DNA from: a virus
Reading direction: 5' to 3' (one strand)
Length of the DNA: 64,000 nucleotides
Virus record (IMG/VR): IMGVR_UViG_3300042975_000098
Positions 9,106-26,890 of this stretch are shown one piece after another (positions within the stretch are counted from its first letter, which is position 1; each line of letters begins with the position of its first letter). Position numbers and translations under genes: made by a program. The notes below the pieces were generated by a model. The model saw only the letters and a program-made list of their open reading frames with translations. It was not told the DNA's origin and did not search any database.

Positions 9106-9179
9106 CAGCGATTAGGAAAGCTTGGTAATCCGCCTGCCCTGGGAGCAGGAGACCGTGGGTTCGAATCCCGCATCGCTGA
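9106..9179 (+). tRNA. tRNA-Pro(TGG), C33
   Basis: CAGCGAT/ATCGCTG acceptor, CCTGC-ccTGGga-GCAGG, GGTTCGAATCC. Confidence 0.9.
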
Positions 9180-9200
9180 CGCGGCCCGTCATGTGGTCCG

Positions 9201-9242
9201 CGACACGCCGGCGGTTGACAACGCTGGCCGTCGCGGTATGAT
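9201..9242 (+). promoter_or_regulatory. Sigma70-type promoter with CGACACGCCGGCG motif
   Basis: TTGACA-16-TATGAT. Confidence 0.7.
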
Positions 9243-9668
9243 GGGGACATAACTTAACGACGAGGACCGGTTCGCACCGGTGGCGGAGAGCGCGCGACGG
9301 CGACGGTACCGGAATGTGAAAGAACTACCGTGTTTGGTCACGATGACCACCATGCCTCGTCAGGCGCGGTGAGCAGCGACGGAGCGCCTGAACACAGGAT
9401 CGAGCATGGGGAAGACAACGCCCTCAACGATCGCCGACGAAAGCCGACGAAGGATTACATATGTACTCCGGGCACGCGTTGATAACCCATGAACGGGACA
9501 CCAACGTCAATCGTGAAGCAATGACGGCCCGTAGCCATTAAACAAGCTTCTTCAGATGAACACATATGCAAGCATGATGCTGACGCAGGTCGTGCGCGCT
9601 GATCAAGATTCCGAGCAGTCGGATAGAAAAACATGCCGTCATGCCGGCGGACGTTAAACGCCGGTTAT

Positions 9669-9759
9669 TCCGTAGGGTTGACCTTTGTCGGTTGTCATGC
9701 GCGTGACTGTTAATCGAGCGTATCGAGAGACATCGCTGGTTCGATCCCAGCCTACGGAG
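9669..9759 (+). tRNA. Atypical 91-nt tRNA-Asn(GTT)-like gene
   Basis: TCCGTAG/CTACGGA acceptor, ctGTTaa loop, T arm; distorted D and variable regions. Confidence 0.5.
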
Positions 9760-9923
9760 CGTGAGCGGGGTGAGCACGATGGCCTGGGGGTCAGTAAAGA
9801 ATCCCCTCGCCGATTTTCTCACGACCCGGCGATGGATAAAGACAGAGCCATGGCCCCACCCGCAGTCCATCACATGTACACCTGAAGTCGGCTCATAGGA
9901 ATCATGATCGCCGACGATAGCAC

Positions 9924-9999
9924 ACGGGCATAGTTCATCGGTACAGAACATCACTCTGATACAGTGATAAGGGTAGTTCGACTCTACCTGCCCGTACCA
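9924..9999 (+). tRNA. tRNA-Ile(GAT), CCA encoded
   Basis: ACGGGCA/TGCCCGT, TCACT-ctGATac-AGTGA. Confidence 0.88.
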
Positions 10000-10077
10000 A
10001 AGCCGCCGGCGAGCATACGGTTCTCCGCGAGCGCTCGCCAGCGGCCTAGTCCTCATGATGACGTTAAAAGCATGAAC

Positions 10078-10151
10078 GCCTCTGTAGTTTAACCGGATTA
10101 AAATCACTGACTACGAATCACTAGTTCCGGGTTCGACTCCCGGCGGGGGCA
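10078..10151 (+). tRNA. tRNA-Arg(ACG)
   Basis: GCCTCTG/CGGGGGC, ctACGaa loop, T arm. Confidence 0.82.
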
Positions 10152-10263
10152 CGCAATCCAACAAGAATGTTGGCAGAGACCAGAAATAACGTGGTTAGCG
10201 GCAGACGACGAGGATCGGTTCTTCACGGACTATGGAGTGTTCGATTCCTCAGAGTCTGCCAAT

Positions 10264-10336
10264 GGCTGTGAAGCTCTACGGTTTGAGCACCTTCCCGTCG
10301 AGAAGGATGAAGCGGGTTCGACTCCCGGCATAGTCG
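10264..10336 (+). tRNA. tRNA-Asp(GTC), C33
   Basis: GGCTGTG/CATAGTC, CCTTC-ccGTCga-GAAGG. Confidence 0.85.
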
Positions 10337-10339
10337 CTT

Positions 10340-10451
10340 GTATCCGGCATCTATACTTCAGGAATGGCTCCTAGCCATTCCATGATGCCCGGTGAGAAAC
10401 ACATGGGGACGTGAAAACAGCACGAGAACATGCACGCCTCACCGTCTGTTT
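10340..10451 (+). ncRNA. Unclassified pseudoknotted structured RNA, copy 1
   Basis: Four stems covary with copy 2 (12413-12523); loop AAACAG complementary to 3' CTGTTT. Confidence 0.8.
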
Positions 10452-10538
10452 ACTTTACGGCGGTGATGTTACGACCAATGAGGCGGGCGAAAACTCATAA
10501 AGCATCTCACATGATGTCCGTTAAGCATCATTTCTTAT

Positions 10539-10609
10539 TCCCCTGTAGTTCAACGGCAGAACGAATGACTGTTAATCATTTAATGAAAGTTCGATTCTTT
10601 CTAGGGGAG
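10539..10609 (+). tRNA. tRNA-Asn(GTT)
   Basis: TCCCCTG/TAGGGGA, AATGA-ctGTTaa-TCATT. Confidence 0.9.
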
Positions 10610-10625
10610 CGTCAGCACACTCCGC

Positions 10626-11018
10626 ATGGAGAACCTGAAATGGGTCACTGGCAGCACGTACGGTTCAAAATGGAACCATTCCGCGCAGCAGGAAGCAATC
10701 GCGCACGCCACCGCCCGGATCGGCGTGACCACGAAACAGGTAAACCCAAAGAACACCTCGCAATCATGCTCACGATGCGGCGCCAGAATCACGCATGACA
10801 CGAGCAAGAGAACAATCCACTGCCCCGCATGCGACCTCACCATGGACAGGGATTATAACGCAGCAATCAACATCGCACACATCACGAGAACGCACCCCGC
10901 GAGTCATTACGGTAATCGCGGGGGTAAGTGTAGCGGACCGGATGGTCCGCAGCTTATGGGGCTGGGTGCTCCTGTGGGCGCGCTAGGAAGTGGTACTGTT
11001 ATAGGTATTGCAACTTAG
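10626..11018 (+). mobile_element. tnpB: IS200/IS605-family TnpB C-terminal remnant
   Basis: VNPKNTSQSCSRCG...CPACDLTMDRDYNAAINI zinc ribbon plus RuvC-III motif; N-terminal part absent. Confidence 0.85.
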
Positions 11019-11061
11019 TGCGTCACCGTATGATTACATAGTTAACAAGTAATCATCATAT

Positions 11062-11099
11062 TGTGGATTGGCAGAGCGGCAATTGCGGCTGACTGTAGA
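11062..11099 (+). pseudogene. 5' half of a tRNA-Tyr(GTA)
   Basis: GTGGATTGGCAGAGCGGC..TGCGGCTGACTGTAGA matches the 5' half of the Tyr tRNA at 13321; no T arm follows. Confidence 0.65.
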
Positions 11100-11156
11100 T
11101 GCGCTTTTACCACTGCGTGGATTGCTTGTCCTCATGATGACAATAAAAGCATGAAC

Positions 11157-11229
11157 GCCTCTATAGTTCAATTGGTAGAACACCGGACTTTTACTCCGGG
11201 TGTTGTCTGTTCGAGTCAGATTGGGGGCA
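11157..11229 (+). tRNA. tRNA-Lys(TTT)
   Basis: CCGGA-ctTTTac-TCCGG; GCCTCTA/TGGGGGC. Confidence 0.85.
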
Positions 11230-11548
11230 CGCAATCCATGTAGTTTTGGATTACATTCAAGACTTAAGTTCCTTGTTATTAGCGCAAAAATAAAAATACT
11301 ATATTACCGCGCGACATGCCGATTGAACGCAGATTTGCGCTCATGAGAACTTCGTGTTATGATAATAATCATTAACGCGCTGGTTGATAACATAATAGTG
11401 ATTAGTTGTGGGGCTTGTTCATCAGGTGTGTCGGTGATGATTTATACAGGTTCGATTCCTGTTACAAGCACGATGATCCACGGGTTCGGCTTGTTACCTG
11501 ACTCTTGTGTGGGTCACGTCGGGAGTCACTAACCCGACGTTAAACTCT

Positions 11549-11637
11549 GGTTGATTGGCCGAGCATGGTTTATGGCACCTGTCTTGAAAACAGGCGTGGG
11601 GCAACACCCACCGGGGGTTCGAATCCCTCATCAACCG
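11549..11637 (+). tRNA. tRNA-Ser(TGA)
   Basis: CCTGT-ctTGAaa-ACAGG, long variable arm, G73. Confidence 0.92.
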
Positions 11638-11749
11638 CGCAGTTCCAGTAGGCTTTGAGTTAGTCGCGTAGTTAACTACTACCATGGTTAGTTGTGACCG
11701 CTAACGAGCCGAACGCATATAGCAACCGAGCGGGTGCAAGGCCCGCGAT

Positions 11750-11823
11750 GCTTCCATAGCCCAATAGGTAGAGGCAGTAGATTTAGGATCTACTCAGTGC
11801 GGGTTCGACTCCTGCTGGAAGCA
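11750..11823 (+). tRNA. tRNA-Leu(TAG), short variable loop
   Basis: GCTTCCA/TGGAAGC, GTAGA-ttTAGga-TCTAC. Confidence 0.9.
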
Positions 11824-11826
11824 CAA

Positions 11827-11915
11827 TGTCTGAATCGCTTACCAGAAGAGGAGCAGCGGCCTAAAAGCCGTGCCGGCTCATTACCGACCCGTAGGGTGAG
11901 ACTCCCACCAGACAG
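11827..11915 (+). pseudogene. Degenerate class II tRNA-like gene (possibly Leu-derived)
   Basis: TGTCTG/CAGACA ends, GCGGC-ctaaaa-GCCGT 6-nt loop, variable arm, variant T loop TGAGACT; partial second copy after 12068. Confidence 0.4.
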
Positions 11916-11998
11916 GAACCAAGAAGCCATTATGACGATAATGCGCGGATTGGCTCACCCTTGCGTTATGATGATAACGTGTCGACATAACGCAAGGT

Positions 11999-12068
11999 GC
12001 TTCCATAGCCCAACAGGTAGAGGCGGCAAGGAACCGTTACAGTGCTGGTTCGAGTCCAGCTGGAAGCA
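11999..12068 (+). pseudogene. tRNA-Leu pseudogene with deletion in the anticodon arm
   Basis: Paralog of the 11750 and 14213 tRNAs; arm reduced to GGC-AAGGA-ACCGTT. Confidence 0.7.
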
Positions 12069-12213
12069 CGATGTCCGAATAGCTTGTGTCCGGTCATGCC
12101 AGCGGCCTACAAGCCGCTCCGGTTCATTACCGGTATACGTTCGCCGCCGATGACACATGCCGGCGAACTGGTCACCATTCATCTTGTTGCGTGGCCGCGA
12201 GCATGAAACCGCG

Positions 12214-12256
12214 CGACACGCCGGCGATTGAAAACGTTCAACCATTGTGGTATCTT
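12214..12256 (+). promoter_or_regulatory. Sigma70-type promoter with CGACACGCCGGCG motif
   Basis: TTGAAA-17-TATCTT with extended TG. Confidence 0.6.
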
Positions 12257-12340
12257 GTAATCATAGCGCAACGGGAGGAATGAACATGAGCACGGAAGCC
12301 TGAACAGCTGACCGATGAGCATTGATTGAATGCCACGGCA

Positions 12341-12409
12341 GTTCATGATTCCAATAGGGGAATCGTCGGCGGTAACGCTGACGAGCGGGTTCGAGTCCCG
12401 TCATGAACA
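12341..12409 (+). ncRNA. Anticodon-less tRNA-like RNA, copy 1 (69 nt)
   Basis: GTTCATG/CATGAAC acceptor, D-like hairpin, 8-bp stem with GGTAAC loop, canonical T arm. Confidence 0.75.
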
Positions 12410-12412
12410 CTA

Positions 12413-12523
12413 GTATCCGGTGTCCATACATAGAGTCGGCCCCTGGCCGGCTCACGACACCCGGTCGGAAACGCATGGGAGCATGAAAACAGCATGTGAG
12501 CATGAACGCCCGACCGTCTGTTT
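12413..12523 (+). ncRNA. Unclassified pseudoknotted structured RNA, copy 2
   Basis: Compensatory changes relative to 10340-10451. Confidence 0.8.
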
Positions 12524-12574
12524 CTTTTCCCGCGCGACGCAATGCGCGGGTCGCGTCCCCTAGGGGCGCGGGTG

Positions 12575-12643
12575 GTTCATGGTTCCGATAGGGGAATCGC
12601 CGGCGAAAGCACCGGCGAGCGGGTTCGAGTCCCGTCATGAACA
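12575..12643 (+). ncRNA. Anticodon-less tRNA-like RNA, copy 2 (69 nt)
   Basis: Same fold as 12341-12409; central stem capped by a GAAA tetraloop. Confidence 0.75.
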
Positions 12644-12968
12644 CTAGAGTCTGATTCGCTGTGGTGGCGATGAAAAAGCTCAAGACTCGATACGCAAGCA
12701 TGAATGCATAGAGCAATAGTTTCATGTAGCTGCTGGTGCTGCTTAAACAGGTCGCGGTAAACGAATAACCAGATGATTCACGGGCGGCATCCCGTGATGA
12801 CATGAAAAGCATGAGGCCAACCACCGATTGCTTCCTGTTCCCTACGTTAGTGGGGTCCTAGGATAGTGGCAAGATGGTGAAACCCCGTCGAGGAGCATGA
12901 GAGCGGATGACATGATTAATCATTCGCGTGGCAGGAATCTAAAACCCTGCCACCTATGCTCCGTTTAT

Positions 12969-13042
12969 GCTTCTATGGCTCAATTGGTTAAAGCAACTGA
13001 CTCTTAATCAGTGGATTTCGGGTTCGAGTCCCGATGGAAGCA
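12969..13042 (+). tRNA. tRNA-Lys(CTT)
   Basis: ACTGA-ctCTTaa-TCAGT. Confidence 0.92.
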
Positions 13043-13065
13043 CGTATCAACATATGTTGATATGT

Positions 13066-13211
13066 GGGGCGACCAAGGTGGTGAACAGCGGGAGTGGTTA
13101 ACCGTGAGAAACCATAGGTCAGCAGTGGTGGCGGGTTAACCGTCCGTCACTGAGAAAGCCCGTGCGCTGTCAAAGCGATACGGTATCACGGTTCGAATCC
13201 GTGGCGCTCCA
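13066..13211 (+). ncRNA. 146-nt tRNA-Ala-like / mini-tmRNA-like RNA
   Basis: GGGGCG.../CGCTCC-A acceptor with G3.U70 and A73, perfect T arm CACGG-TTCGAAT-CCGTG, large internal insert, no anticodon arm. Confidence 0.6.
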
Positions 13212-13320
13212 CTATGCCGGTGCCCTCCCATGTTCGCACAATACCATGGGTTCACATCGGCGATGCCGTGTGTACGACCGCGAGAGCGGGCGGATGCCGG
13301 GCATGGGTTCATGGATATTT

Positions 13321-13402
13321 GGTGGGTTGGCAGAGTTGGTCAAATGCGGTCGGCTGTAAACCGACTCCTACGGGTACGGGGGTTCGAATCCCTCACCCAC
13401 CA
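13321..13402 (+). tRNA. tRNA-Tyr(GTA)
   Basis: GTCGG-ctGTAaa-CCGAC, variable arm. Confidence 0.92.
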
Positions 13403-13519
13403 CGACGGGTACTGGCAGGCATCTTGGATATCGGGAATAGCCATAAGGTTGATTACCGGAAGCGATTTCCCGAAGCTCCGCCCCTCATCATGACGCCGAT
13501 TTGATCACTCATGATGTAT

Positions 13520-13590
13520 ACGCCTATGGTGCAGTGGCAGCACAAGAGCTTCCAAACCTCCTGATCTGGGTTCGATTCCTGGTGGGCGTG
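13520..13590 (+). tRNA. tRNA-Trp(CCA) (alternative reading Gly(TCC))
   Basis: A1-U72 and G73 favour Trp; anticodon stem has mismatches (AGAGC-ttCCAaa-CCTCC). Confidence 0.6.
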
Positions 13591-13595
13591 CGTAT

Positions 13596-13668
13596 GGTCC
13601 CATAGAGCAACGGTCACCTCGCCTGATTCTCAATCAGGAGATTCCGGGTTCGAATCCCGGTGGGACTA
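13596..13668 (+). tRNA. tRNA-Glu(CTC)
   Basis: CCTGA-ttCTCaa-TCAGG. Confidence 0.92.
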
Positions 13669-13832
13669 CTGGTCATCGGCAATACGCGAACGACGGGATA
13701 CCTGCCGCTCACGGTGCCAACGGGCGTTGGCGATGACATGGTTTGCTGGGAGCCGAAGACCAGCCGGTATGATGCCGCCGCGGAATCACCGCGAGCGACA
13801 CTGTTCATCGAATCTCCGTCAAGGATTCGAAT

Positions 13833-13905
13833 GGCCACGAGGTTCTACGGTTTGAACACCTGCCTGTCGAGCAGGACCAAGCGGGTTCGACTCCCGTCGT
13901 GGTCG
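13833..13905 (+). tRNA. tRNA-Asp(GTC)
   Basis: CCTGC-ctGTCga-GCAGG; paralog of 10264. Confidence 0.88.
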
Positions 13906-14078
13906 CGATCATCGTCATGCCGATGCCAAGCGCCGGCGACAATGAATCGCCGACACCGGTCGGCGATGGCAGTCGGGTTACTCCTCAAACGCGAACGGTT
14001 CGACTCCGAGCGCGAGCGAGTGGAACGCTGCCATCAACGCCGGCGGGCACGCACATGTCGCCATGCCCGTCGGCGTTC

Positions 14079-14152
14079 GCTCGTCTAGCCCAATCGGCAG
14101 AGGCGACGGTTTCAAAAGCCGTACAGTGCGGGTTCGAATCCCGCGGCGAGCA
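14079..14152 (+). tRNA. tRNA-Leu(CAA), short variable loop
   Basis: ACGGT-ttCAAaa-GCCGT. Confidence 0.9.
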
Positions 14153-14212
14153 CGCGCGTTGCCAACGAACGCCATCGATTGTCGAGCGATGGGGCGCCAT
14201 ACAGCGAGTCAA

Positions 14213-14285
14213 GCTTCCGTAGCCCAACGGCAGAGGCAGTGGTCTAAGGAACCACACAGTGCGAGTTCGAGTCTCGCCGGGAGCA
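14213..14285 (+). tRNA. tRNA-Leu(AAG), A34
   Basis: GTGGT-ctAAGga-ACCAC. Confidence 0.88.
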
Positions 14286-14286
14286 C

Positions 14287-14426
14287 GATGACGGAGGTGA
14301 TGATCGGGGTTACTTCTCATGTTAAGGGGGAGGTTCCGGGTTCGAATCCCGGTCGGTTGGCCTTGCGCCTTCCGGTAGCTCAACGGCAGAGCGCCAATAT
14401 TCCCCGGTCGGTTTTTACCCGTCATC
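14287..14426 (+). ncRNA. Circularly permuted tRNA-like / YrlA-like RNA, copy 1
   Basis: Outer stem enclosing, in order, anticodon-like hairpin, T arm, looped acceptor stem and D arm. Confidence 0.8.
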
Positions 14427-14431
14427 AACAT

Positions 14432-14518
14432 GGTCGGTTGTCCGAGTCCGGTTTAAGGAACCTGTCCAGAAAACAGGCATGGCCGACGCCATCGGGGGTT
14501 CGAATCCCTCACCGACCG
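14432..14518 (+). tRNA. tRNA-Ser(AGA), A34, C33
   Basis: CCTGT-ccAGAaa-ACAGG, long variable arm, G73. Confidence 0.88.
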
Positions 14519-14985
14519 CGCGCCGTTGATAATCGCTCATCATGTGGTATAAATAGACGCTGATGTTTTGTACGTAATGGTATAATACATCACGCATTGA
14601 TGCGAGGAATCGTGTCAATACGCAGCGTGATGGTAATGAGCAGCGTAACTCCTCGACTCATGACGGTGAATCAATTATTAGCGTCCCCAGCACGATTAAC
14701 GCTGGTTAGATGCAAGACACCGCCGAGGAGGGATTACTACTTACTACTCACCGCGTCATGCAACCGGGATGGCGGCTCTCGCCTCCTACCCGGTAGAGGG
14801 TACTGCAGTGCACCCAGTGAGGCGCGAGCCTCACGAACACTAAGCGTAGCGCAATTTGTACTATCGCTTAATAACTGTTATACTCATGATGGGCGACGAT
14901 CAACGCCCGATGTTCCCCACGCTAACGGGGGTTCATCACGTTGCAGTTCCAGCTGTATCTATCCCCCACGCAAATGGGGGTGTAC

Positions 14986-15059
14986 GCTTCCATAGCTCAA
15001 TTGGTTAGAGCATCCGCCTCTTAAGCGGAGGGTTGTGGGTCCGAGTCCCACTGGGAGCA
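14986..15059 (+). tRNA. tRNA-Lys(CTT)
   Basis: TCCGC-ctCTTaa-GCGGA; T loop TCCGAGT. Confidence 0.88.
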
Positions 15060-15060
15060 C

Positions 15061-15261
15061 GATGACGGAGGTGATGATCGAGGTTACTTCCATGATAAGG
15101 GGAGGTTCCGGGTTCGAATCTCGGCCGGTCGGCCTTAGCCGGTCGCCGGCTTGCTTGGCGGTTCTCGCTTCGCGGTTCGAATCCCGGTCGGTTGGCCTTG
15201 CGCCTTCCGGTAGCTCAATGGTTAGAGCGCCCTAACCCTCGATCGGTTTTTACCCGTCATC
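15061..15261 (+). ncRNA. Circularly permuted tRNA-like / YrlA-like RNA, copy 2, with internal duplication
   Basis: Same ends as copy 1 with compensatory change in the outer stem (GATCGAGG/CCTCGATC); two T-arm motifs. Confidence 0.75.
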
Positions 15262-15266
15262 AACAC

Positions 15267-15355
15267 GGTCGGTTGTCCGAGTCCGGTTTAAGGAGCCTGC
15301 TTCGAATACAGGTGTGGCCGCAAGACCACCGGGGGTTCGAATCCCTCACCGACCG
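15267..15355 (+). tRNA. tRNA-Ser(CGA)
   Basis: CCTGC-ttCGAat-ACAGG; paralog of 14432. Confidence 0.88.
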
Positions 15356-15405
15356 CTAGCGGTGCGCCATCGATCGATGCCCGCGCCGCCGATATCGCCG
15401 TCAAC

Positions 15406-15479
15406 GGGGGTTTAGCTCAGTCGGTTAGAGCAAACGACTCATAATCGTTCGGTCCAGGGTTCAAGCCCCTGAATCCCCA
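15406..15479 (+). tRNA. tRNA-Met/Ile2(CAT)
   Basis: AACGA-ctCATaa-TCGTT; elongator-type. Confidence 0.88.
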
Positions 15480-15496
15480 CACGTGGTATGTATCTT

Positions 15497-15570
15497 GTCG
15501 ACGTAGCTCAGATGGCCAGAGCGCCGAGTCGAAGCCTCGGAGGTCGTTCGTTCGATGCGAACCGTCGACA
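15497..15570 (+). tRNA. tRNA-Phe(GAA), C33
   Basis: CCGAG-tcGAAgc-CTCGG; GTCGACG/CGTCGAC. Confidence 0.85.
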
Positions 15571-15628
15571 CTGGGGAGCGGTCAGCCGCTCCAGCCCGCG
15601 ATCGGCATCAGTCGAGGGCATTAACCAT

Positions 15629-15711
15629 ATGTCGGCATCAGATTGGTGACTCAAGCGCTCTCCAAAAGCGTCGCCCCTCGGGGCTTGCAGGTTCGAATCC
15701 TGCCCGGCGTG
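15629..15711 (+). tRNA. tRNA-Trp(CCA) with long variable arm
   Basis: GCGCT-ctCCAaa-AGCGT, GCCCC/GGGGC variable stem, weak D arm. Confidence 0.65.
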
Positions 15712-15786
15712 CTCATTCCCCTGTTTGACTGATCGACGGCTCATAGTATGATGATGAGCAACTTGCCAATCAATCAGGGGGGGACA

Positions 15787-16350
15787 ATGAAACCGATCGT
15801 CTGCCATGGCGATATCACCACCATGAACGTGGATGCGATAGTCAACGCAGCCAACAGTGAGCTCGCGCGGGGCCGCGGCGTGTGCGGAGCCATTTTCGCC
15901 GCCGCCGGTGACGACGCCGGGCGATTACAGGACGAGTGCTTCTCGAAAGCGCCCGTACGCCCCGGCGGCGCCGTGCTGACGAAAGCTTACGGTCTGCCCG
16001 CGCGATTCATCATCCACGCGGTCGGCCCGGTGTACGACCCTGCCGACGCCGCCGGCAGCGAGCGGCTTCTCCGCTCAACGTATGATGCCGCGCTGGCGAT
16101 AGCCGACGAGCATCATATGGGCAGCGTCGCGTTCCCGCTGATATCCTCGGGGATCTACGGTTATCCTCATGATGACGCGCTGGCGATAGCGCTCGACGCG
16201 CTGGCAGGTCATCGCAATCGGAATGAACGGCATATGGATGTTTACCTTGTCCTGTTCGATTCCTCGCGCGAAGCCGTCCCATCATGGTGGCGGCGCGCCA
16301 TCGGGAACGTCATCGCCTCCATACTCCAACGGCAGAGAGTGCGGGCCTAA
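15787..16350 (+). CDS. Macro domain protein (YmdB-like ADP-ribose hydrolase)
   Basis: GDIT, DAIVNAAN, GRGVCGAI, IIHAVGP, AFPLISSGIYGYP. Confidence 0.92.
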   Translation: MKPIVCHGDITTMNVDAIVNAANSELARGRGVCGAIFAAAGDDAGRLQDECFSKAPVRPGGAVLTKAYGLPARFIIHAVGPVYDPADAAGSERLLRSTYDAALAIADEHHMGSVAFPLISSGIYGYPHDDALAIALDALAGHRNRNERHMDVYLVLFDSSREAVPSWWRRAIGNVIASILQRQRVRA

Positions 16351-16387
16351 ACCCCGCTGGTTCCCGGTTCGAATCCGGGTGGGGGCA
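16315..16387 (+). tRNA. tRNA-Leu(TAA), C33; overlaps the 3' end of the macro gene
   Basis: GCGGG-ccTAAac-CCCGC; GCCTCCA/TGGGGGC. Confidence 0.82.
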
Positions 16388-16687
16388 CTTCGGTTAGTTC
16401 AATCGTCGCATTCGCGTCGCGATCCCAATCACTCGCTTCGCGGAGGTCGGCGCCAAGTCCTGACGGCGATTGGGAGCCATCAGGGATGAGGTAGAACGCC
16501 GGGAGCATATCCCGGAGATGTCGTGCGAATCGACGCCAATCACGTATGCGGTCGCGGCCATCGACGTCGCAGGCGCATCATTCGACTCCATGCGCTGGGC
16601 ATGGGACGGCCGCACAGGCCGTCAGCGGGTTCGACTCCCGGTCGGGTGACGATGGCGGGAGCGGGCGGTCGCTCCCGCCGTCATTTC

Positions 16688-16761
16688 GCGGACATAGCTT
16701 AGCTGGTTAAAGCGCGACCTTGCCAAGGTCGAGACCGCGGGTTCGAGTCCCGCTGTCCGCT
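16688..16761 (+). tRNA. tRNA-Gly(GCC)
   Basis: CGACC-ttGCCaa-GGTCG. Confidence 0.95.
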
Positions 16762-16817
16762 CGATGACGCACGCCGGAGACAATCATCGCCGGCACCGTC
16801 AGCATCAGTGTACGTTC

Positions 16818-16891
16818 GCTCACGTGGCGCAGCCGGTCAGCGCGCCTGCATCACACGCAGGAGGTCCGTGGTTCGATCCCACGCGCGAGCA
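16818..16891 (+). tRNA. tRNA-Val(CAC)
   Basis: CCTGC-atCACac-GCAGG. Confidence 0.9.
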
Positions 16892-16931
16892 CGACCACGG
16901 TCGATGACGATCATCGCCGACCGTTGGCAAT

Positions 16932-17002
16932 GCGGGTATGGCTTAATGGCAGAGCATCGTCCTTCCAAGTCGATCATGCGGGTTCGATTCCCGCTGCCCG
17001 CT
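16932..17002 (+). tRNA. tRNA-Gly(TCC)
   Basis: ctTCCaa loop, GCGGGTA/TGCCCGC, U73. Confidence 0.9.
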
Positions 17003-17149
17003 CGATGATCACCCGGAACCTGCGCTGCGGCCGCGTTCCGTTAGCGGCATGGGAACCTGGTGATCCATACCATGCACTGCGTCCCCGTTGGGCGGCAAGC
17101 GCCGCCCGCGCAGCATACCGACCGGAGCTCAGGGACGGCTCCGGTCACT

Positions 17150-17220
17150 GCGGATGTGGTTCAACGGCAGAACTGCGGCTTCCCAAGTCGCCGGCGCGGG
17201 TTCGACCCCCGCCATCCGCT
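17150..17220 (+). tRNA. tRNA-Gly(CCC)
   Basis: GCGGC-ttCCCaa-GTCGC. Confidence 0.92.
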
Positions 17221-17232
17221 CGCATCGGTCAT

Positions 17233-17305
17233 GCTCCCGTGGCCCAGTGGTCAGGGCGCCTCGCTTACACCGAGGACATCATGGGTTCGAATCCCATCGG
17301 GAGCA
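17233..17305 (+). tRNA. tRNA-Val(TAC)
   Basis: CCTCG-ctTACac-CGAGG. Confidence 0.92.
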
Positions 17306-17316
17306 CGATCGCTCAC

Positions 17317-17392
17317 GGGGATGTGGCTCAACAGGTAGGGCATCTCGCCAGCAACGAGAAGGCAGCGGGTTCGACCCCCGCCATCTCCACCA
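17317..17392 (+). tRNA. tRNA-Ala(AGC), A34, C33, CCA encoded
   Basis: G3.U70, TCTCG-ccAGCaa-CGAGA. Confidence 0.88.
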
Positions 17393-17510
17393 CGCCGACG
17401 ACCAGCCGTCGATCGAAACCGGTTCGATGGCGTTCGGCGTCATGTATGCGCGCCCGCGGGAATCACACCGTCCGCGCGCGCCCGCGATCGGCTACGGAAC
17501 CCGATCACAT

Positions 17511-17583
17511 GCCCGCATAGCTCAACCGGCAGAGCGGCGCTCTCGTAAAGCGCAGGTACGCGGTTCGACACCGCGTGCGGGCT
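17511..17583 (+). tRNA. tRNA-Thr(CGT)
   Basis: GCGCT-ctCGTaa-AGCGC. Confidence 0.92.
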
Positions 17584-17651
17584 CGATGGCATCGATGACA
17601 CGATGTCGTTCGCCATCGGCGGTCGGCTCCACGCCGGCCATCGATGGCATC

Positions 17652-17724
17652 GTCCGCGTGGCGCAGTTGGCAGCGCGCCTGCATGACCCGCAGGTGGTCC
17701 GTGGTTCGATTCCACGCGCGGACA
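17652..17724 (+). tRNA. tRNA-Val(GAC)
   Basis: CCTGC-atGACcc-GCAGG. Confidence 0.88.
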
Positions 17725-17760
17725 CTGCTCGGCGATGATTTCGCAGGTCGCCGAGAATAT

Positions 17761-17833
17761 CGTGGCGTAGCTCAGTTGGCAGAGCACCCGGCTCATAACC
17801 GGGAGGGGGATGGTTCGATCCCATCCGCCACGA
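17761..17833 (+). tRNA. tRNA-Met(CAT)
   Basis: CCCGG-ctCATaa-CCGGG; paired C1-G72. Confidence 0.88.
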
Positions 17834-17869
17834 CGACGCTCGCGGTCTAATCGTCGACCGTCAACACAC

Positions 17870-17942
17870 TGTCCGATGGTGAAACTGGCATCACGCCCGG
17901 CCCTGAACCGGGAGACTGCAGGTTCGAATCCTGCTCGGACAA
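17870..17942 (+). tRNA. tRNA-Gln(CTG), C33
   Basis: CCCGG-ccCTGaa-CCGGG; U1-A72. Confidence 0.88.
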
Positions 17943-17962
17943 CGACCTGGTATAATGCCAGC

Positions 17963-18391
17963 ATGGCTAACAAGAAGACGACGTTATCGTTGATCGCCGC
18001 GCTGGCGGCGGTCATCATCCTGTATTTCGTACCGCAGGGCGCGTCATACCTCACCTCGCACATAGGATTCCTTCGACCGGTGCAGACCGGTGTGGAATCC
18101 ACGAGCGCGTTGGCTCTGCGCAACGGCGTCATGGTCGGCAAGGCCACGCTGACGACGGACTCGCCCGGCAGCGGCAAGACGGTGACCGTGAACATGGAAC
18201 TGTACCGTAACGGCGGCAAGGTGCGCGAATGCTCGCAGGCGTCGTACCCGTTGTCATCATCGCGAACGAACGTCATCGTCAACTGCGGTATGGCCGACGG
18301 CGTGAAGGCCGGTCGCAGTGGCGGGTACACGGTCAAGGTCATCAAGGCCCGCGTGATATCGATGCCATCCGGTGACAGTAGCAATGATTAA
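17963..18391 (+). CDS. Hypothetical exported protein (leaderless)
   Basis: TATAAT-N6-ATG; N-terminal hydrophobic signal or anchor; two Cys. Confidence 0.75.
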   Translation: MANKKTTLSLIAALAAVIILYFVPQGASYLTSHIGFLRPVQTGVESTSALALRNGVMVGKATLTTDSPGSGKTVTVNMELYRNGGKVRECSQASYPLSSSRTNVIVNCGMADGVKAGRSGGYTVKVIKARVISMPSGDSSND

Positions 18392-18432
18392 CGACTTGCC
18401 GGCGCCGGTCATCGGCCGACGCCGGTTCCCTT

Positions 18433-18505
18433 GGGGATGTAGCTCAACTGGTAGAGCGCCTCGTCCGCAACGAGGAGGCAGTGGGTTCGACCCCCATCAT
18501 CTCCA
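18433..18505 (+). tRNA. tRNA-Ala(CGC), C33
   Basis: G3.U70, CCTCG-tcCGCaa-CGAGG. Confidence 0.88.
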
Positions 18506-18580
18506 CTCCGCCCGCATCCGAATGTTGATGCTGGCGGCGCGCCGCCAGCGAGGGCGCGAACGATGTGATATGATGTACTT

Positions 18581-18669
18581 GGATGGGATTGCAACTCGGT
18601 GAATGCTAATCGGTTTGCTAAACCGGTGCGGCCGCAAGACCGCCGTGGGTTCGACTCCCACCCCATCCG
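18581..18669 (+). tRNA. tRNA-Ser(GCT)
   Basis: ttGCTaa loop, long variable arm, G73. Confidence 0.88.
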
Positions 18670-18761
18670 CGGGCGCCTAACGCACAGAAGCGCCGTAACA
18701 ACCCGAGTGCATAGTCAGCAGCCGCGGGCGATGATGATCATCGCCGGCGATTGGTGGCACC

Positions 18762-18836
18762 GCCTTCGTAGCTCAACGGATTAGAGCACCGGTCCTCGGA
18801 ACCGGGTTGTAGTGGGTTCGACACCCACCGGGGGCA
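18762..18836 (+). tRNA. tRNA-Arg(TCG), C33
   Basis: CCGGT-ccTCGga-ACCGG. Confidence 0.87.
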
Positions 18837-18907
18837 CGTCGCGGGGCGGCCGACTGGTCGCACCCGATTGGCCGCGGTCGTCCGTTCGCTGGCGATCGCT
18901 GCCCATG

Positions 18908-18978
18908 TGGTCCATAGCTCAATGGCAGAGCGACGGCTTGTGGCGCCGTATATCCGGGTTCGATCCCCGGTGGTCCAA
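18908..18978 (+). tRNA. tRNA-His(GTG)
   Basis: ACGGC-ttGTGgc-GCCGT; G-1 present at 18907 but position 73 is A. Confidence 0.85.
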
Positions 18979-18980
18979 CT

Positions 18981-19054
18981 CGCGGGGTAGAGCAGTTCGG
19001 TAGCTCGCCGGCCTCATAAGCCGGAGGTCACGGGTTCGAATCCCGTCCCCGCCA
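18981..19054 (+). tRNA. Initiator-like tRNA-fMet(CAT)
   Basis: CGCGGGG start, unpaired C1, GAGC/GCTC D stem; anticodon stem GGC/GCC instead of GGG/CCC. Confidence 0.88.
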
Positions 19055-19085
19055 CGATAAGCCGGTTCGTCCGGCGATTCAACAT

Positions 19086-19156
19086 GCTGGGATAGCCAAG
19101 CGGCAGGGCGACGGTCTGCAAAACCGTACAGGCGGGTTCGACTCCCGTTCCCAGTT
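19086..19156 (+). tRNA. tRNA-Cys(GCA)
   Basis: ACGGT-ctGCAaa-ACCGT, U73. Confidence 0.92.
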
Positions 19157-19195
19157 CGGATGCGACCGTCGGCATCGTCGGCGATCACGTTCATT

Positions 19196-19266
19196 TGCCC
19201 ATTCGTCCATTGGCAGGACGGGAGCCTTTGGTGCTCCAGAAGGTGGTTCGATCCCATCATGGGCAG
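19196..19266 (+). tRNA. tRNA-Gln(TTG)
   Basis: GGAGC-ctTTGgt-GCTCC. Confidence 0.92.
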
Positions 19267-19267
19267 C

Positions 19268-19340
19268 GCGCCGGTAGCTCACTGGATAGAGCGCCCGTCT
19301 ACGGAGCGGGAGGTCGTGGGTTCGAATCCCACTCGGCGCA
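19268..19340 (+). tRNA. tRNA-Arg(ACG)
   Basis: CCCGT-ctACGga-GCGGG. Confidence 0.93.
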
Positions 19341-19485
19341 CTCGGGTTCATTTCGGAGCCACAAGTACTGGGTCGCCGAATGGCGGTAACGAGGGTCGGC
19401 ATCGGTTGCCGGCCGTTCGCTAGGATTCCTTTGTCGTGGTGAACCTGACCGCCCCGTCGAACCGATCGGCGGGGTCTTTCCTTAT

Positions 19486-19561
19486 GGTCCGGCGGTGTGC
19501 GGGGATTCGCGCATACGCGACCTTCAATCGCGTGGTTCGGGTTCGATTCCCGATCGGACTA
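19486..19561 (+). tRNA. tRNA-Glu(TTC), C33, atypical D arm
   Basis: CGCGA-ccTTCaa-TCGCG; GGTCCGG/TCGGACT. Confidence 0.75.
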
Positions 19562-19588
19562 CGATTTTCCATACGATATTAACCGCTC

Positions 19589-20152
19589 ATGACCGATGAG
19601 CAAGCAAACAGCGATGACGTTGACGATGCCGATGGCCTCTGGCCGTCGACCGCTGGCGACGGCGTTCCACCGGCGGTCACGGAGTCCATAGCCAAACACA
19701 AGGCGCTGGCGGTTACACGCCGGGGGCGGATGCGGTTCAGAAGATGCATGAGCACGTTGAAATGGAATCGCTGGTTCAGCACGCGCGACATCACACGCGC
19801 CTATGTCCGCAATGATGGTCGAACCCTGGTGTTCCTCAGCGTGATGTACGCCGGCGTCGGTCTCACGTCGCTCGTATGCGGGCACGGCGTCATCAGAATC
19901 GCGTTCAGCGTGGCATTCCTCCTTGGCGCTCCGGTGGCGTTCCTGCTGGGGCGGGGCTCGTTGGCGGCCGCGTGCGATACGGCCGATGACGCCACGCTCA
20001 TGGACATGGCGCTGAAGCTCGCATGGGCCACCACATGGGAGCGTCTTCGCATGCTCCGCGTCACCGGCGCCGGCGATGACGGGAGCGAACACGCCGCCGA
20101 TGGCATCAAGCCGCCGGCGGACGACGGGCGGCGGCGAGAACCGTTATCATGA
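19589..20152 (+). CDS. Hypothetical membrane protein
   Basis: Two hydrophobic segments; CGATATT-N8-ATG upstream. Confidence 0.65.
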   Translation: MTDEQANSDDVDDADGLWPSTAGDGVPPAVTESIAKHKALAVTRRGRMRFRRCMSTLKWNRWFSTRDITRAYVRNDGRTLVFLSVMYAGVGLTSLVCGHGVIRIAFSVAFLLGAPVAFLLGRGSLAAACDTADDATLMDMALKLAWATTWERLRMLRVTGAGDDGSEHAADGIKPPADDGRRREPLS

Positions 20153-20246
20153 TGCGATCGGCGGCGACACGCCGGCGGAATCGATGTCGATATTCGTGGT
20201 ATACTTCTGTATGGTCGCGGGAACGTGATCATTGATAATCGAACAG

Positions 20247-20320
20247 GCCCGTGTAGCTCATCTGGATAGAGCGTTTTCCCCCTAAGAAAAAGGCAGTCGG
20301 TTCGAGTCCGACCGCGGGCA
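20247..20320 (+). tRNA. tRNA-Arg(CCT), C33
   Basis: TTTTC-ccCCTaa-GAAAA. Confidence 0.87.
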
Positions 20321-20391
20321 CGATTACGGTGGCGACACCGTGATCAACGTCGGCGCGGGTCCGCCCTTCATGGGCACCCCGTCGGCACCTC

Positions 20392-20465
20392 GCCTCCGTG
20401 GCCTAACTGGATAAGGTTGTGAGCCTCTACCTCACCGATTGTGGGTTCGAGTCCCACCGGGGGCA
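20392..20465 (+). tRNA. tRNA-Arg(TCT), C33
   Basis: GTGAG-ccTCTac-CTCAC. Confidence 0.87.
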
Positions 20466-26858: not shown

Positions 26859-26890
26859 ATCGTCCGCCCCTGACGGTATCATTGGTGATC

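What the first reader, a model, noticed from the sequence alone, without database searches (positions are those of the whole stretch)
14287..15261. Two circularly permuted tRNA / YrlA-like RNAs embedded between real tRNAs
Seen: a long outer stem (GATGACGG/CCGTCATC plus GATCGGGG/CCCCGGTC, with compensatory GATCGAGG/CCTCGATC in copy 2) encloses tRNA parts in permuted order: an anticodon-like loop (atGTTaa in copy 1, atGATaa in copy 2), variable loop, T arm, an acceptor stem closed by a loop, then TAGCTC..GAGC D arm. Copy 2 has a duplicated T-arm segment. Each follows a tRNA directly and precedes a Ser tRNA. Known: bacterial YrlA Y RNAs have T-acceptor-D order under a Ro60/Rsr-binding stem; permuted tRNA genes are described in algae and archaea. 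No TROVE/Rsr gene is in this window. Inference: a Y-RNA variant retaining an anticodon-like loop, or a bacterial permuted tRNA precursor.
Basis: partly seen in the sequence, partly recalled or inferred. Interest (0 to 1): 0.82.

Follow-up and report, generated by a model that had tools for sequence, protein, structure and literature searches.

The report
Two YrlA Y RNAs inside tRNA array
The two odd "scrambled tRNA" elements are real. They belong to a known class, the bacterial YrlA Y RNAs that partner the Ro60/Rsr protein, and are unusual only in lying between tRNA genes on a giant plasmid-like element with no Ro60 gene nearby.

Summary
Copy 1 (14287-14426) and copy 2 (15061-15261) have a two-part closing stem around a hairpin with an anticodon-like loop. 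After the hairpin come a 5-nt variable loop, a T arm, a closed acceptor-like stem and a D arm. Each copy starts 1 nt after a tRNA and ends 5 nt before a tRNA-Ser.

They are YrlA-type Y RNAs. I built a covariance model only from 55 YrlA RNAs that lie beside Ro60 genes in other genomes. It scores copy 1 at 103 bits and copy 2 at 79 bits. Independent YrlAs score 74-107 bits and tRNA dimers at most 56.5 bits. Rfam's own YrlA model gives only 28.6 bits, but it scores Ro-adjacent actinophage YrlAs equally low.

The "anticodon-like" hairpin is the family's ordinary V arm. Its consensus loop is C-U-N-N-U-A-A, so it is not a special variant. The resemblance to permuted tRNAs is already discussed in the literature.

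Two things are less usual. No Ro60 gene lies in the window or in about 25 kb of flanks on related contigs. Copy 2 carries a 60-nt internal T-arm/acceptor duplication.

The verdict is a new member of a known kind, of modest interest. The scan has noted Y RNAs in tRNA arrays on other DNA before.

The parts
14287..14426 (+). YrlA-type Y RNA, copy 1 (about 140 nt, from the P1 5' strand to the P1 3' strand)
   Evidence: Model R1 scores 103.1 bits, E 1e-32, full length. Rfam YrlA scores 28.6 bits.
14287..14309 (+). Copy 1, 5' strand of the presumed Ro60-binding module. P1 is GAUGACGG, the internal loop is AGGUGAU (family motif G-N-G-N-A-G, here G-U-G-A-U-G), and P2 is GAUCGGGG, running into the GGUUAC motif.
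   Evidence: The A at the motif's fifth position is U here, as in 4 of 55 family members.
14313..14332 (+). Copy 1 V arm: an anticodon-arm-like hairpin with a 5-6 bp stem and loop AUGUUAA(G)
   Evidence: It is followed by 5 nt and then the T stem, as in a class I tRNA.
14336..14352 (+). Copy 1 T arm (CCGGG UUCGAAU CCCGG)
14353..14375 (+). Copy 1 closed acceptor-like stem (AS): 9 bp with tandem U.U mismatches and loop CUUGC
   Evidence: The AS helix covaries strongly in the family.
14376..14393 (+). Copy 1 U8-A9, D arm (GCUC AACGGCA GAGC) and G26. A15 pairs with U48 (Levitt pair).
14402..14426 (+). Copy 1, 3' strands of P2 (CCCCGGUC) and P1 (CCGUCAUC), with internal loop GGUUUUUAC between them
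15061..15261 (+). YrlA-type Y RNA, copy 2 (about 201 nt)
   Evidence: Model R1 scores 78.8 bits, E 2e-24, full length, with a 72-nt insertion placed in the AS loop. The fold z-score is -4.2.
15087..15104 (+). Copy 2 V arm with loop AUGAUAA(G)
15108..15149 (+). Copy 2 first T arm (15108-15124, intact) and first acceptor-like hairpin (15125-15149, fully paired). Part of this stretch is the extra material of the internal duplication.
15173..15228 (+). Copy 2 second T-arm remnant (its stem keeps only 3 of 5 pairs), second acceptor-like hairpin 15188-15210, and D arm 15213-15228
   Evidence: In RNA-library variants the U.U/U.U mismatches of this hairpin are replaced by U-A and C-G.
14213..14286 (+). 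tRNA-Leu(AAG), directly upstream of copy 1
14432..14519 (+). tRNA-Ser(AGA), 5 nt downstream of copy 1. Its RNase P site would set the 3' end of copy 1.
   Evidence: The processing role is inference.
14986..15060 (+). tRNA-Lys(CTT), directly upstream of copy 2
15267..15356 (+). tRNA-Ser(CGA), 5 nt downstream of copy 2. It belongs to the duplicated unit [tRNA 3' end - YrlA - tRNA-Ser].
9046..20813 (+). The surrounding same-strand array of 44 real tRNA genes. Promoter-like sites lie at 9046-9074 and 9215-9242, and a strong terminator-like hairpin at 20782-20813.
   Evidence: Consensus matches only; co-transcription is inferred.

Best explanation
Both elements are YrlA-class bacterial Y RNAs.

Anatomy. 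Each has two modules. The first is a terminal bipartite helix (P1 and P2, with the G-N-G-N-A/U-G internal loop and the GGUUAC motif), which in this family is the Ro60/Rsr-binding handle. The second is a tRNA-like body in the order V arm, 5-nt variable loop, T arm, closed acceptor-like stem, D arm.

Production (inferred). The copies lie 1 nt and 5 nt from neighbouring tRNAs and have no promoter or terminator of their own. They are therefore most likely co-transcribed with the tRNA array and released by the tRNA-processing enzymes. RNase P cutting at the downstream tRNA-Ser would set the 3' end. 3' maturation of the upstream tRNA would set the 5' end.

Action (inferred). The released RNA of about 140 nt (copy 1) or 200 nt (copy 2) would bind a Ro60/Rsr ring supplied in trans, either from the host chromosome or from elsewhere on the 346-kb-or-larger conjugative plasmid-like element. 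It would present its tRNA-shaped module to an effector such as PNPase, RtcB-type repair enzymes or another tRNA-elbow binder. That makes it part of the RNA quality-control and translation-support cargo (45-gene tRNA array, tmRNA) of the element.

What is shown: family membership, the structure, covariation, and presence in RNA libraries. What is inferred: processing, Ro60 binding in trans, and the effector.

History. Copy 2 is a paralogue from a segmental duplication of [tRNA 3' end - YrlA - tRNA-Ser]. It later gained a 60-nt internal T-arm/acceptor duplication.
For: (1) Sequence relatives. blastn of copy 1 finds Gordonia phages Trax, Neville and Rabbitrun, Mycobacterium phage Nappy and Rhodococcus phage Weasels2. 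The matches lie just 5' of Ro-like/TROVE genes, or near RtcB in Weasels2.

(2) Family pattern. The motif pattern GGTTACYTC..GGGTTCGAATCCC..GTAGCTCA finds 32 viral contigs and at least 120 genome contigs. Of the 152 loci, 124 have a Ro60 gene on the same strand, mostly within 1 kb. Of 10 genomes whose locus showed no Ro60 hit, 9 have TROVE elsewhere in the genome.

(3) Covariance model. Model R1 was built from 55 non-redundant Ro60-adjacent YrlAs with the window excluded.
- Its structure is supported: 86% of cells paired against at most 50% when partners are slid, and covariation score 0.435 against at most 0.15.
- Copy 1 scores 103.1 bits and copy 2 78.8 bits, both full length.
- Independent YrlAs score 74-107 bits.
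- tRNA dimers score 40.5 bits in the window and at most 56.5 bits in five megaplasmids.

(4) Rfam. Rfam YrlA scores copy 1 at 28.6 bits. It scores the Ro60-adjacent actinophage YrlAs at 44, 36 and 26 bits, so the low score is a limit of the model.

(5) Tertiary signature. The Levitt pair 15:48 is G:C in 41 and A:U in 14 of 55 family members, with no exceptions. Both window copies have A15:U48.

(6) Compensatory change among close relatives.
- P2: G-C to A-U between copy 1 and copy 2. The A-U version also occurs in an insertion-free variant.
- Acceptor-like stem: U.U/U.U become U-A and C-G in variants from two RNA libraries.

(7) RNA libraries. Contigs from four RNA libraries in three studies cover copy 1 or copy 2 at about 95-97% identity.

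(8) Precedent. YrlA embedded in tRNA arrays occurs elsewhere together with Ro60: L021 and L130 (Ro60 within 1 kb), and L161 (YrlA between tRNA-Val and tRNA-Lys, Ro60 6.7 kb downstream).
Against: - No Ro60/TROVE gene was found in the 64-kb window. None was found in 7.8 kb upstream or about 17 kb downstream on related contigs. In the family the gene is normally within 4 kb on the same strand.
- The fifth position of the conserved handle motif is U instead of A. This is a minority state (4 of 55).
- The Rfam gathering score is not reached.
- Copy 2's internal duplication leaves its T-arm usage ambiguous. Its minimum-energy fold pairs the two T-arm copies with each other.
- RNA-library contigs do not prove transcription and cannot show RNA ends.
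- No Ro60 binding, processing or effector has been tested for these RNAs.
Confidence: 0.8

Rival explanations
1. Ro60-independent tRNA mimic. On this element YrlA has been uncoupled from Ro60 and acts alone. It could be a decoy or sponge for tRNA-targeting nucleases or tRNA-binding proteins. Alternatively, after RNase P cleavage in the acceptor loop and CCA addition (as in M. smegmatis YrlA), it could act as a two-piece tRNA-like molecule.
For: - No Ro60 gene was found in about 89 kb examined.
- Both acceptor-like hairpins carry G-C-C directly after the 7-nt 3'-acceptor-equivalent strand.
- The V arm has the exact geometry of an anticodon arm, and model positions 31-69 align to positions 27-65 of real tRNAs.
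- M. smegmatis YrlA is cleaved by RNase P and receives CCA (PMC4201824).
Against: - The Ro60-binding handle (P1/P2, the G-N-G loop, GGUUAC) is fully retained, and P2 is kept by compensatory change. That argues the handle is still used.
- YrlA and Ro60 co-occur in nearly all genomes checked.
- The acceptor helix runs 2 bp beyond position 1:72, which is not the usual RNase P substrate shape.
Confidence: 0.1
2. Decaying or non-functional copies. The elements, copy 2 above all, are relics carried along in the array by duplication and no longer make a working Y RNA.
For: - Copy 2 has a 60-nt internal duplication, a damaged second T stem (3 of 5 pairs) and a score 24 bits lower than copy 1.
- No partner Ro60 gene is nearby.
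Against: - Both copies keep every helix.
- P2 differs between the copies by a compensatory pair.
- In relatives about 96% identical, copy 2 keeps the insertion, and its acceptor-like stem has gained pairs through changes on both strands.
- Contigs from RNA libraries cover both copies.
Confidence: 0.07
3. Bacterial circularly permuted tRNA genes. The precursor would be circularised or re-ligated at the closing stem and opened in the acceptor loop to give decoding tRNA-Asn(GUU) and tRNA-Ile(GAU).
For: - The order of parts is a circular permutation of a tRNA.
- ARAGORN calls 14289-14362 a tRNA-Asn.
- Wang et al. (10.1101/312249) raise the resemblance as a possibility.
Against: - The elements belong to a Ro60-linked family in which loop positions 33, 36, 37 and 38 are conserved while 34 and 35 vary freely.
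- Rfam's tRNA model does not match them.
- The acceptor-like stem has tandem U.U mismatches.
- The array already has canonical tRNA-Asn(GTT) at 10539 and tRNA-Ile(GAT) at 9924.
- No bacterial splicing endonuclease is known (10.1101/312249).
- The closing stem joins between the D arm and the hairpin, not inside an anticodon loop.
Confidence: 0.03

Closest known systems
YrlA Y RNAs of Actinomycetota and their phages (M. smegmatis YrlA, mycobacteriophage ET08/Bxz1-type; Chen et al. 2014, PMC4201824; Rfam RF02553)
   Same: - Same two-module plan: a Ro60-binding terminal helix carrying GGUUAC, and a tRNA-like body in the order V arm, T, AS, D.
- Same invariant T-loop and D-arm sequences.
- Same 15:48 covariation.
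- Full-length match of 103 and 79 bits to a model of the family.
- Direct blastn similarity to the Trax and Nappy YrlA loci.
   Different: - No rsr gene within 4 kb; none found in about 89 kb examined.
- Wedged between tRNA genes at distances of 1 nt and 5 nt.
- One handle position is A-to-U.
- Copy 2 has an internal T/AS duplication.
- The carrier is a conjugative megaplasmid-like element, not a chromosome or phage.
S. [quoted passage not shown]
   Same: T-AS-D order, closed acceptor-like stem, and tRNA tertiary contacts.
   Different: In Salmonella YrlA the junction is closed directly by an anticodon-stem-like helix and the variable region is short. Here, and in much of the actinobacterial branch, a separate 5-bp, 7-nt-loop hairpin sits before a 5-nt variable loop and makes a five-helix junction.
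tRNA-array-embedded YrlA with nearby Ro60 (L021 and L130 viral/genomic loci; Actinomycetes MAG contig L065/L161)
   Same: YrlA flanked by tRNAs at 22-50 nt inside arrays of 22-32 tRNA genes, on the same strand. R1 scores the L161 YrlA at 101 bits.
   Different: Those loci have Ro60 0.5-6.7 kb downstream. The window has none.
Circularly permuted tRNA genes of red and green algae and Thermofilum (as cited in 10.1101/312249)
   Same: The acceptor stem is first a closed loop, and the RNA ends pair in a stem.
   Different: Those precursors mature into decoding tRNAs through a splicing endonuclease acting at the permuted junction. There is no such enzyme or evidence here, and the family is linked to Ro60.

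Membership tests
YrlA (bacterial Y RNA) | tRNA-like module in the order T arm, closed acceptor-like stem, D arm, with the conserved GGGUUCGAAUCCC and GUAGCUCA..GAGC sequences | tested here: met
   Both copies.
YrlA (bacterial Y RNA) | Terminal helix formed by the 5' and 3' ends that carries the conserved Ro60-binding 5' strand (G-N-G-N-A-G loop and GGUUAC) | tested here: met
   P1 and P2 are present and P2 is kept by a compensatory change. The motif reads G-U-G-A-U-G; U at the A position is seen in 4 of 55 members.
YrlA (bacterial Y RNA) | Score above threshold with a family covariance model | tested here: inconclusive
   Rfam RF02553 gives 28.6 bits against a gathering score of 69 (not met), but Ro60-adjacent actinophage YrlAs also score only 26-44 bits. 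The custom model R1, built from Ro60-adjacent YrlAs, gives 103.1 and 78.8 bits. Independent positives score 74-107 bits and tRNA-dimer background at most 56.5 bits.
YrlA (bacterial Y RNA) | tRNA tertiary signature: covarying Levitt pair 15:48 | tested here: met
   Family: G:C in 41, A:U in 14, no exceptions. The window copies have A15:U48.
YrlA (bacterial Y RNA) | Encoded within about 4 kb of, and on the same strand as, an rsr (Ro60/TROVE) gene | tested here: not met
   No TROVE in the window by tblastn or profile HMM, and none in the flanks on related contigs. The rest of the 346-kb contig and the host could not be searched.
YrlA (bacterial Y RNA) | Physical binding by Rsr/Ro60; tRNA-type modifications (pseudouridine 55, dihydrouridine) | not testable with these tools
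   Needs co-immunoprecipitation or EMSA and modification mapping.
Canonical tRNA | Cloverleaf in the order acceptor-D-anticodon-T, recognised by a tRNA model | tested here: not met
   Rfam tRNA reports no match on either element at E up to 10. The ARAGORN tRNA-Asn call at 14289-14362 uses the handle as a false acceptor and D arm. ARAGORN also places false tRNA calls on many Ro60-adjacent YrlAs.
Circularly permuted tRNA gene | Processing junction recognised by a splicing endonuclease, and maturation to a decoding tRNA | not tested
   No bulge-helix-bulge analysis was run. No bacterial enzyme is known (10.1101/312249). Canonical Asn(GTT) and Ile(GAT) tRNAs are already in the array.

The most novel reading that the evidence does not exclude
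These are orphan YrlA RNAs that a Ro60-less conjugative megaplasmid carries inside its tRNA operon and that work without an element-encoded Ro60. They might hijack the recipient host's Rsr. Or RNase P might open them and CCA be added, giving two-piece, anticodon-arm-bearing tRNA-like molecules or decoys that protect the element's tRNA supply from host tRNA-targeting defences.
Probability: 0.1. Interest if true: 0.7.

Novelty: new member of a known kind. Interest (0 to 1): 0.3.

Why it matters
The result corrects the annotation. One of the 45 ARAGORN tRNA calls is really a Y RNA, and Rfam's YrlA model misses this branch of the family.

It adds a case of YrlA transcribed as part of a tRNA operon on a giant conjugative element with no Ro60 gene nearby. 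If the element truly lacks Ro60, a mobile element would be supplying only the RNA half of a Ro60 particle to its host. That would be a useful handle on the still unknown function of the tRNA-like module.

The family-wide finding that the V arm has exact anticodon-arm geometry fits the published idea that YrlA arose from a tRNA dimer. It suggests the V arm is the first tRNA's anticodon arm.

Tried and rejected
- No whole genome is held for the window, and the metagenome record cannot be searched through a handle.
- Exact-pattern scans for the handle found nothing in viral or metagenome contigs.
- blastn of copy 1 against plasmids gave no match.
- Several exact-protein look-ups failed.
- Walking related contigs covered only 7.8 kb upstream and about 17 kb downstream of the window and met no TROVE gene. 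The remaining roughly 250 kb of the 346-kb contig is unsearched.
- PHROGs gave no hit for ten unannotated window proteins.
- The 558-aa ORF just after the array is LPD1-like, not Ro60-like.
- Five complete actinobacterial megaplasmids with tRNA arrays have neither TROVE nor a true YrlA. Their best R1 matches are tRNA dimers.
- I tested whether each copy's D-arm half or V/T half derives from a neighbouring tRNA of the array and found no convincing signal.
- The RNA-library contigs left 21-29 kb (protein genes) uncovered.
- DNA runs that hold the stretch are mainly bioreactor-sludge metagenomes, some of which may be the source sample.
- Small-share RNA runs were used only where contigs were laid.
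Full report
OBSERVATION

The region lies in a same-strand array of tRNA genes running from 9106 to 20577, followed by a tmRNA gene at 35017. Two related elements sit in the array.

Copy 1 is 14287-14426 and copy 2 is 15061-15261. They are nearly identical at both ends and differ by a 60-nt insert in copy 2.

In copy 1 the helices are as follows (coordinates):
- P1: GAUGACGG 14287-14294 pairs with CCGUCAUC 14419-14426.
- P2: GAUCGGGG 14302-14309 pairs with CCCCGGUC 14402-14409.
- Between the P2 strands lie a hairpin (14313-14332, loop AUGUUAA), five unpaired bases, a canonical T arm (14336-14352), a closed acceptor-like stem (14353-14375) and U8-A9 with a canonical D arm (14376-14392).

The minimum-energy folds reproduce this layout, with z-scores of -2.6 and -4.2.

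Copy 2's P2 is GAUCGAGG/CCUCGAUC. Relative to copy 1, one G-C pair has become A-U through changes on both strands, and one U.G pair has become U-A.

Copy 1 begins 1 nt after tRNA-Leu(AAG) and ends 5 nt before tRNA-Ser(AGA). Copy 2 begins 1 nt after tRNA-Lys(CTT) and ends 5 nt before tRNA-Ser(CGA).

WHAT IT IS

Rfam's YrlA model aligns to copy 1 over its whole length, but at only 28.6 bits against a gathering score of 69.

blastn of copy 1 against phage genomes found short but telling matches in Gordonia phages Trax, Neville and Rabbitrun, Mycobacterium phages Nappy and Flabslab, and Rhodococcus phage Weasels2. In Trax and Nappy the match lies directly upstream of the Ro-like (TROVE) gene. In Weasels2 an RtcB ligase gene is nearby.

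Rfam's YrlA model scores these Ro60-adjacent phage RNAs at 44, 36 and 26 bits. The Rfam model therefore under-scores this whole branch of the family.

All these RNAs share the motif GGUUACYUC followed by a hairpin. A pattern built on that motif plus the T-loop and D-arm sequences found 32 viral contigs and at least 120 bacterial genome contigs, mostly Actinomycetota but also Acidobacteriota, Hyphomicrobiaceae and others.
- In 124 of the 152 loci a Ro60 orthologue lies on the same strand, usually 80-1000 nt downstream.
- Of ten genomes whose fetched locus showed no Ro60 hit, nine have a TROVE gene elsewhere in the genome.

I aligned 55 non-redundant Ro60-adjacent RNAs with the window excluded (A2) and wrote a six-helix structure: P1, P2, V, T, AS and D.
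- 86% of cells form pairs, against 36-50% when partners are slid.
- The covariation score is 0.435, against at most 0.15 in the slid controls.
- 0 of 500 shuffles reach the observed values.

The model built from this alignment (R1) scores as follows:

| Sequence | R1 score |
|---|---|
| Copy 1 (full length, E 1e-32) | 103.1 bits |
| Copy 2 (full length, insert placed in the AS loop, E 2e-24) | 78.8 bits |
| YrlAs not used for training, including Weasels2 | 74-107 bits |
| Best tRNA dimer in the window | 40.5 bits |
| Best tRNA dimer in five actinobacterial megaplasmids | 56.5 bits |

The tRNA tertiary signature also fits. In the family, positions 15 and 48 are G:C in 41 sequences and A:U in 14, with no exceptions. 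Both window copies have A15:U48.

The handle motif G-N-G-N-A-G reads G-U-G-A-U-G here. U at the A position is a minority state, seen in 4 of 55 members.

I conclude that both elements are YrlA-family Y RNAs.

THE "ANTICODON-LIKE" HAIRPIN

This hairpin is not peculiar to the window. It is the arm that Chen et al. (PMC4201824) call V.
- It covaries across the family. The inner pairs are GC 19 / CG 13 / UA 3 / AU 1, and AU 19 / CG 12 / UA 4 / GC 2.
- In 76 of 147 distinct sequences it has a 7-nt loop on a 4-5 bp stem, with consensus C-U-N-N-U-A-A. It mostly lies 5-6 nt before the T stem by the script's count, which the structural alignment resolves to 5 nt.
- Positions 34 and 35 vary freely, while position 36 is U in 48 of 76.

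The triplets GUU and GAU in the window are therefore two of many. They are unlikely to be decoding anticodons.

The geometry is nonetheless exactly that of a tRNA anticodon arm plus a class I variable loop. Real tRNAs in the window match model positions 31-69 (V arm, 5 nt, T arm) with their own positions 27-65, at up to 34.6 bits. ARAGORN miscalls many YrlAs as tRNAs, including 14289-14362 here.

This fits the published idea that YrlA arose from a tRNA dimer, with the T arm from the first tRNA and the D arm from the second (Sim and Wolin, as cited in 10.1101/312249). On my reading the V arm would be the first tRNA's anticodon arm. That is an inference.

From my own knowledge and untested here: the C32-U33-N-N-U36-A37-A38 pattern is that of tRNAs reading ANN codons, which carry t6A37.

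WHAT IS ALREADY KNOWN

- The resemblance of YrlA to circularly permuted tRNAs (10.1101/312249).
- The fact that some Y RNAs lie next to tRNA genes (10.1101/312249).
- RNase P cleavage in the acceptor loop followed by CCA addition, shown for M. smegmatis YrlA (PMC4201824).

Earlier notes of this scan also record Ro60/Y-RNA modules in or beside tRNA arrays on other DNA.

My own survey found such cases:
- L021 and L130 have arrays of 26-32 tRNAs, with YrlA 39 nt from a tRNA and Ro60 within 1 kb.
- In an Actinomycetes MAG contig, YrlA lies between tRNA-Val and tRNA-Lys in a 24-tRNA array, with Ro60 6.7 kb downstream.

Multi-copy YrlA is also common (L022, L090, L129, L136, L153).

WHAT IS UNUSUAL HERE

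No Ro60 gene nearby. tblastn with two phage Ro60 proteins found nothing in the window. A profile of 102 YrlA-adjacent Ro60 orthologues, searched against all six-frame ORFs, also found nothing (best E 1.4). Pfam scans of 20 of the larger window ORFs, plus JGI's Pfam annotations on related contigs, show no RtcB, PNPase or vWA gene.

The carrier. The window is 99.8% identical over 16.4 kb to JGI metagenome contigs, one of them 346 kb long. DNA runs that hold it are mostly bioreactor-sludge metagenomes. Genes on or beside the window include:
- a TraG/TrwB-type coupling protein just upstream;
- GyrA, an NAD-dependent ligase, a sigma factor, a DnaX-like clamp-loader subunit, FtsH, RecG, a PF03090 replicase and an NlpC/P60 protein;
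- a class A penicillin-binding protein downstream.

There are no PHROG matches. This looks like a conjugative megaplasmid-like element, probably of an actinobacterium. The host assignment is inferred from the tRNA-array matches.

Walking related contigs found no TROVE gene in 7.8 kb upstream or about 17 kb downstream of the window. The rest of the element and the host could not be searched.

Copy 2's internal duplication. Copy 2 holds:
- an intact first T arm (15108-15124);
- a fully paired first acceptor-like hairpin (15125-15149);
- a 23-nt spacer;
- a second T-arm remnant whose stem keeps 3 of 5 pairs (15173-15187);
- the second acceptor-like hairpin (15188-15210) next to the D arm.

The model reads the first T arm, then an acceptor-like stem made of the first 5' strand and the last 3' strand. 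The minimum-energy fold instead pairs the two T-arm copies with each other. Which fold forms is open.

EVIDENCE THAT BOTH COPIES ARE MAINTAINED

Contigs from four RNA libraries in three studies cover copy 1 (14246-14454 and 14321-14551) and copy 2 (15078-15297 and 15152-15356) at about 95-97% identity. Such contigs do not prove transcription and cannot show RNA ends, but they supply close natural variants.
- One variant at the copy 1 position has copy 2's P2 sequence (GAUCGAGG/CCUCGAUC) and no insertion.
- Two variants of copy 2 keep the insertion. In them the tandem U.U mismatches of the acceptor-like stem are changed to U-A and C-G by substitutions on both strands: 15193 T>C with 15205 T>G, and 15206 T>A. 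In addition, 15188 T>C turns a U.G pair into C-G.

This is the pattern expected of an RNA helix under selection.

HOW IT MOST LIKELY WORKS

Shown:
- family membership;
- the structure and its covariation;
- the tight packing between tRNAs;
- promoter-like sites at the head of the array (9046, 9215) and a strong terminator-like hairpin at its end (20782-20813), with no predicted terminator and no promoter-like site meeting the scan's criteria next to the copies.

Inferred:
- The copies are co-transcribed with the tRNAs.
- They are released by RNase P at the downstream tRNA-Ser and by 3' maturation of the upstream tRNA.
- They bind a Ro60/Rsr ring made elsewhere, in the host or in another part of the element.
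- They present the tRNA-shaped module to an effector, as proposed for YrlA generally (PNPase, RtcB-type repair, tRNA-elbow binders; PMC4201824, 10.1101/312249).

On an element that also brings 44 tRNAs and a tmRNA, this fits a translation-support and RNA-repair cargo.

RIVALS

| Rival | Odds | Main point against |
|---|---|---|
| Ro60-independent tRNA mimic or two-piece tRNA-like molecule | about 0.1 | The retained, covarying handle |
| Decaying relic, chiefly copy 2 | about 0.07 | The compensatory changes in relatives |
| True permuted tRNA precursor | about 0.03 | The family evidence and the canonical Asn and Ile tRNAs already in the array |

VERDICT

The Y-RNA reading is supported and the permuted-tRNA reading is not. 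This is a new member of a known kind, with an unusual context. Interest is modest.

Noticed in passing
window 14289-14362: ARAGORN's tRNA-Asn(GTT) call is an artefact of YrlA copy 1, so the array has 44 tRNA genes, not 45. ARAGORN also places false tRNA calls on many Ro60-adjacent YrlAs in other genomes.
   Followed up: yes
window 14520-14985: This is a 466-nt gap in the tRNA array with promoter-like TTGATA..TATAAA and TATAAT boxes near 14526-14590. Contigs from two RNA libraries cover 14662-14920 and 14743-14878 at about 97% identity. No Rfam family matches at E up to 10. It may be an unannotated small RNA or a small gene (an ORF spans 14597-14995).
   Followed up: partly
window 18977-19152; plasmid loci L168, L171, L172: Adjacent tRNA pairs (for example tRNA-Met plus tRNA-Cys) align full length to the YrlA model at 40-56 bits, with the T arm taken from the first tRNA and the D arm from the second. 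This illustrates the published dimeric-tRNA origin idea. It also sets a background score that annotators should keep in mind.
   Followed up: partly
family alignment A2 and loci L004-L155: The YrlA V arm has the exact geometry of an anticodon arm: a 4-5 bp stem, a 7-nt loop with consensus C-U-N-N-U-A-A, then 5 nt to the T stem. The U36-A37-A38 pattern is that of tRNAs reading ANN codons. I found no statement of this in the two YrlA papers I read.
   Followed up: partly
window 1-64000; related contig Ga0527070_018 (L158, L162): The carrier is a conjugative plasmid-like element of at least 346 kb from bioreactor-sludge metagenomes. It encodes a TraG/TrwB coupling protein, GyrA, an NAD-dependent ligase, a sigma factor, DnaX, FtsH, RecG, a PF03090 replicase and a PBP. 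It has no PHROG matches.
   Followed up: partly
window 25800-34520: A module of about 4.5 kb (190-aa and 108-aa proteins, YAcAr, Fic, thioredoxin-like, 399-aa protein) is tandemly duplicated in the window and in the 346-kb contig. It is single in two related contigs. One of those contigs instead carries a resolvase plus TnpB/Cas12f-like insertion.
   Followed up: no
window 9046-9242 and 20782-20813: Near-consensus promoter-like sites lie at the head of the array, and a 13-bp GC-rich terminator hairpin with a T run lies just after the last tRNA. The whole array therefore looks like one or a few operons.
   Followed up: no
plasmids NZ_CP099467.1, NZ_MF600313.1, NZ_LR134450.1, CP018784.1, NC_011879.1: Five complete actinobacterial megaplasmids (274-567 kb) with tRNA arrays have no TROVE gene and no true YrlA. 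A Y RNA in such an array is therefore not a general feature of these plasmids.
   Followed up: yes
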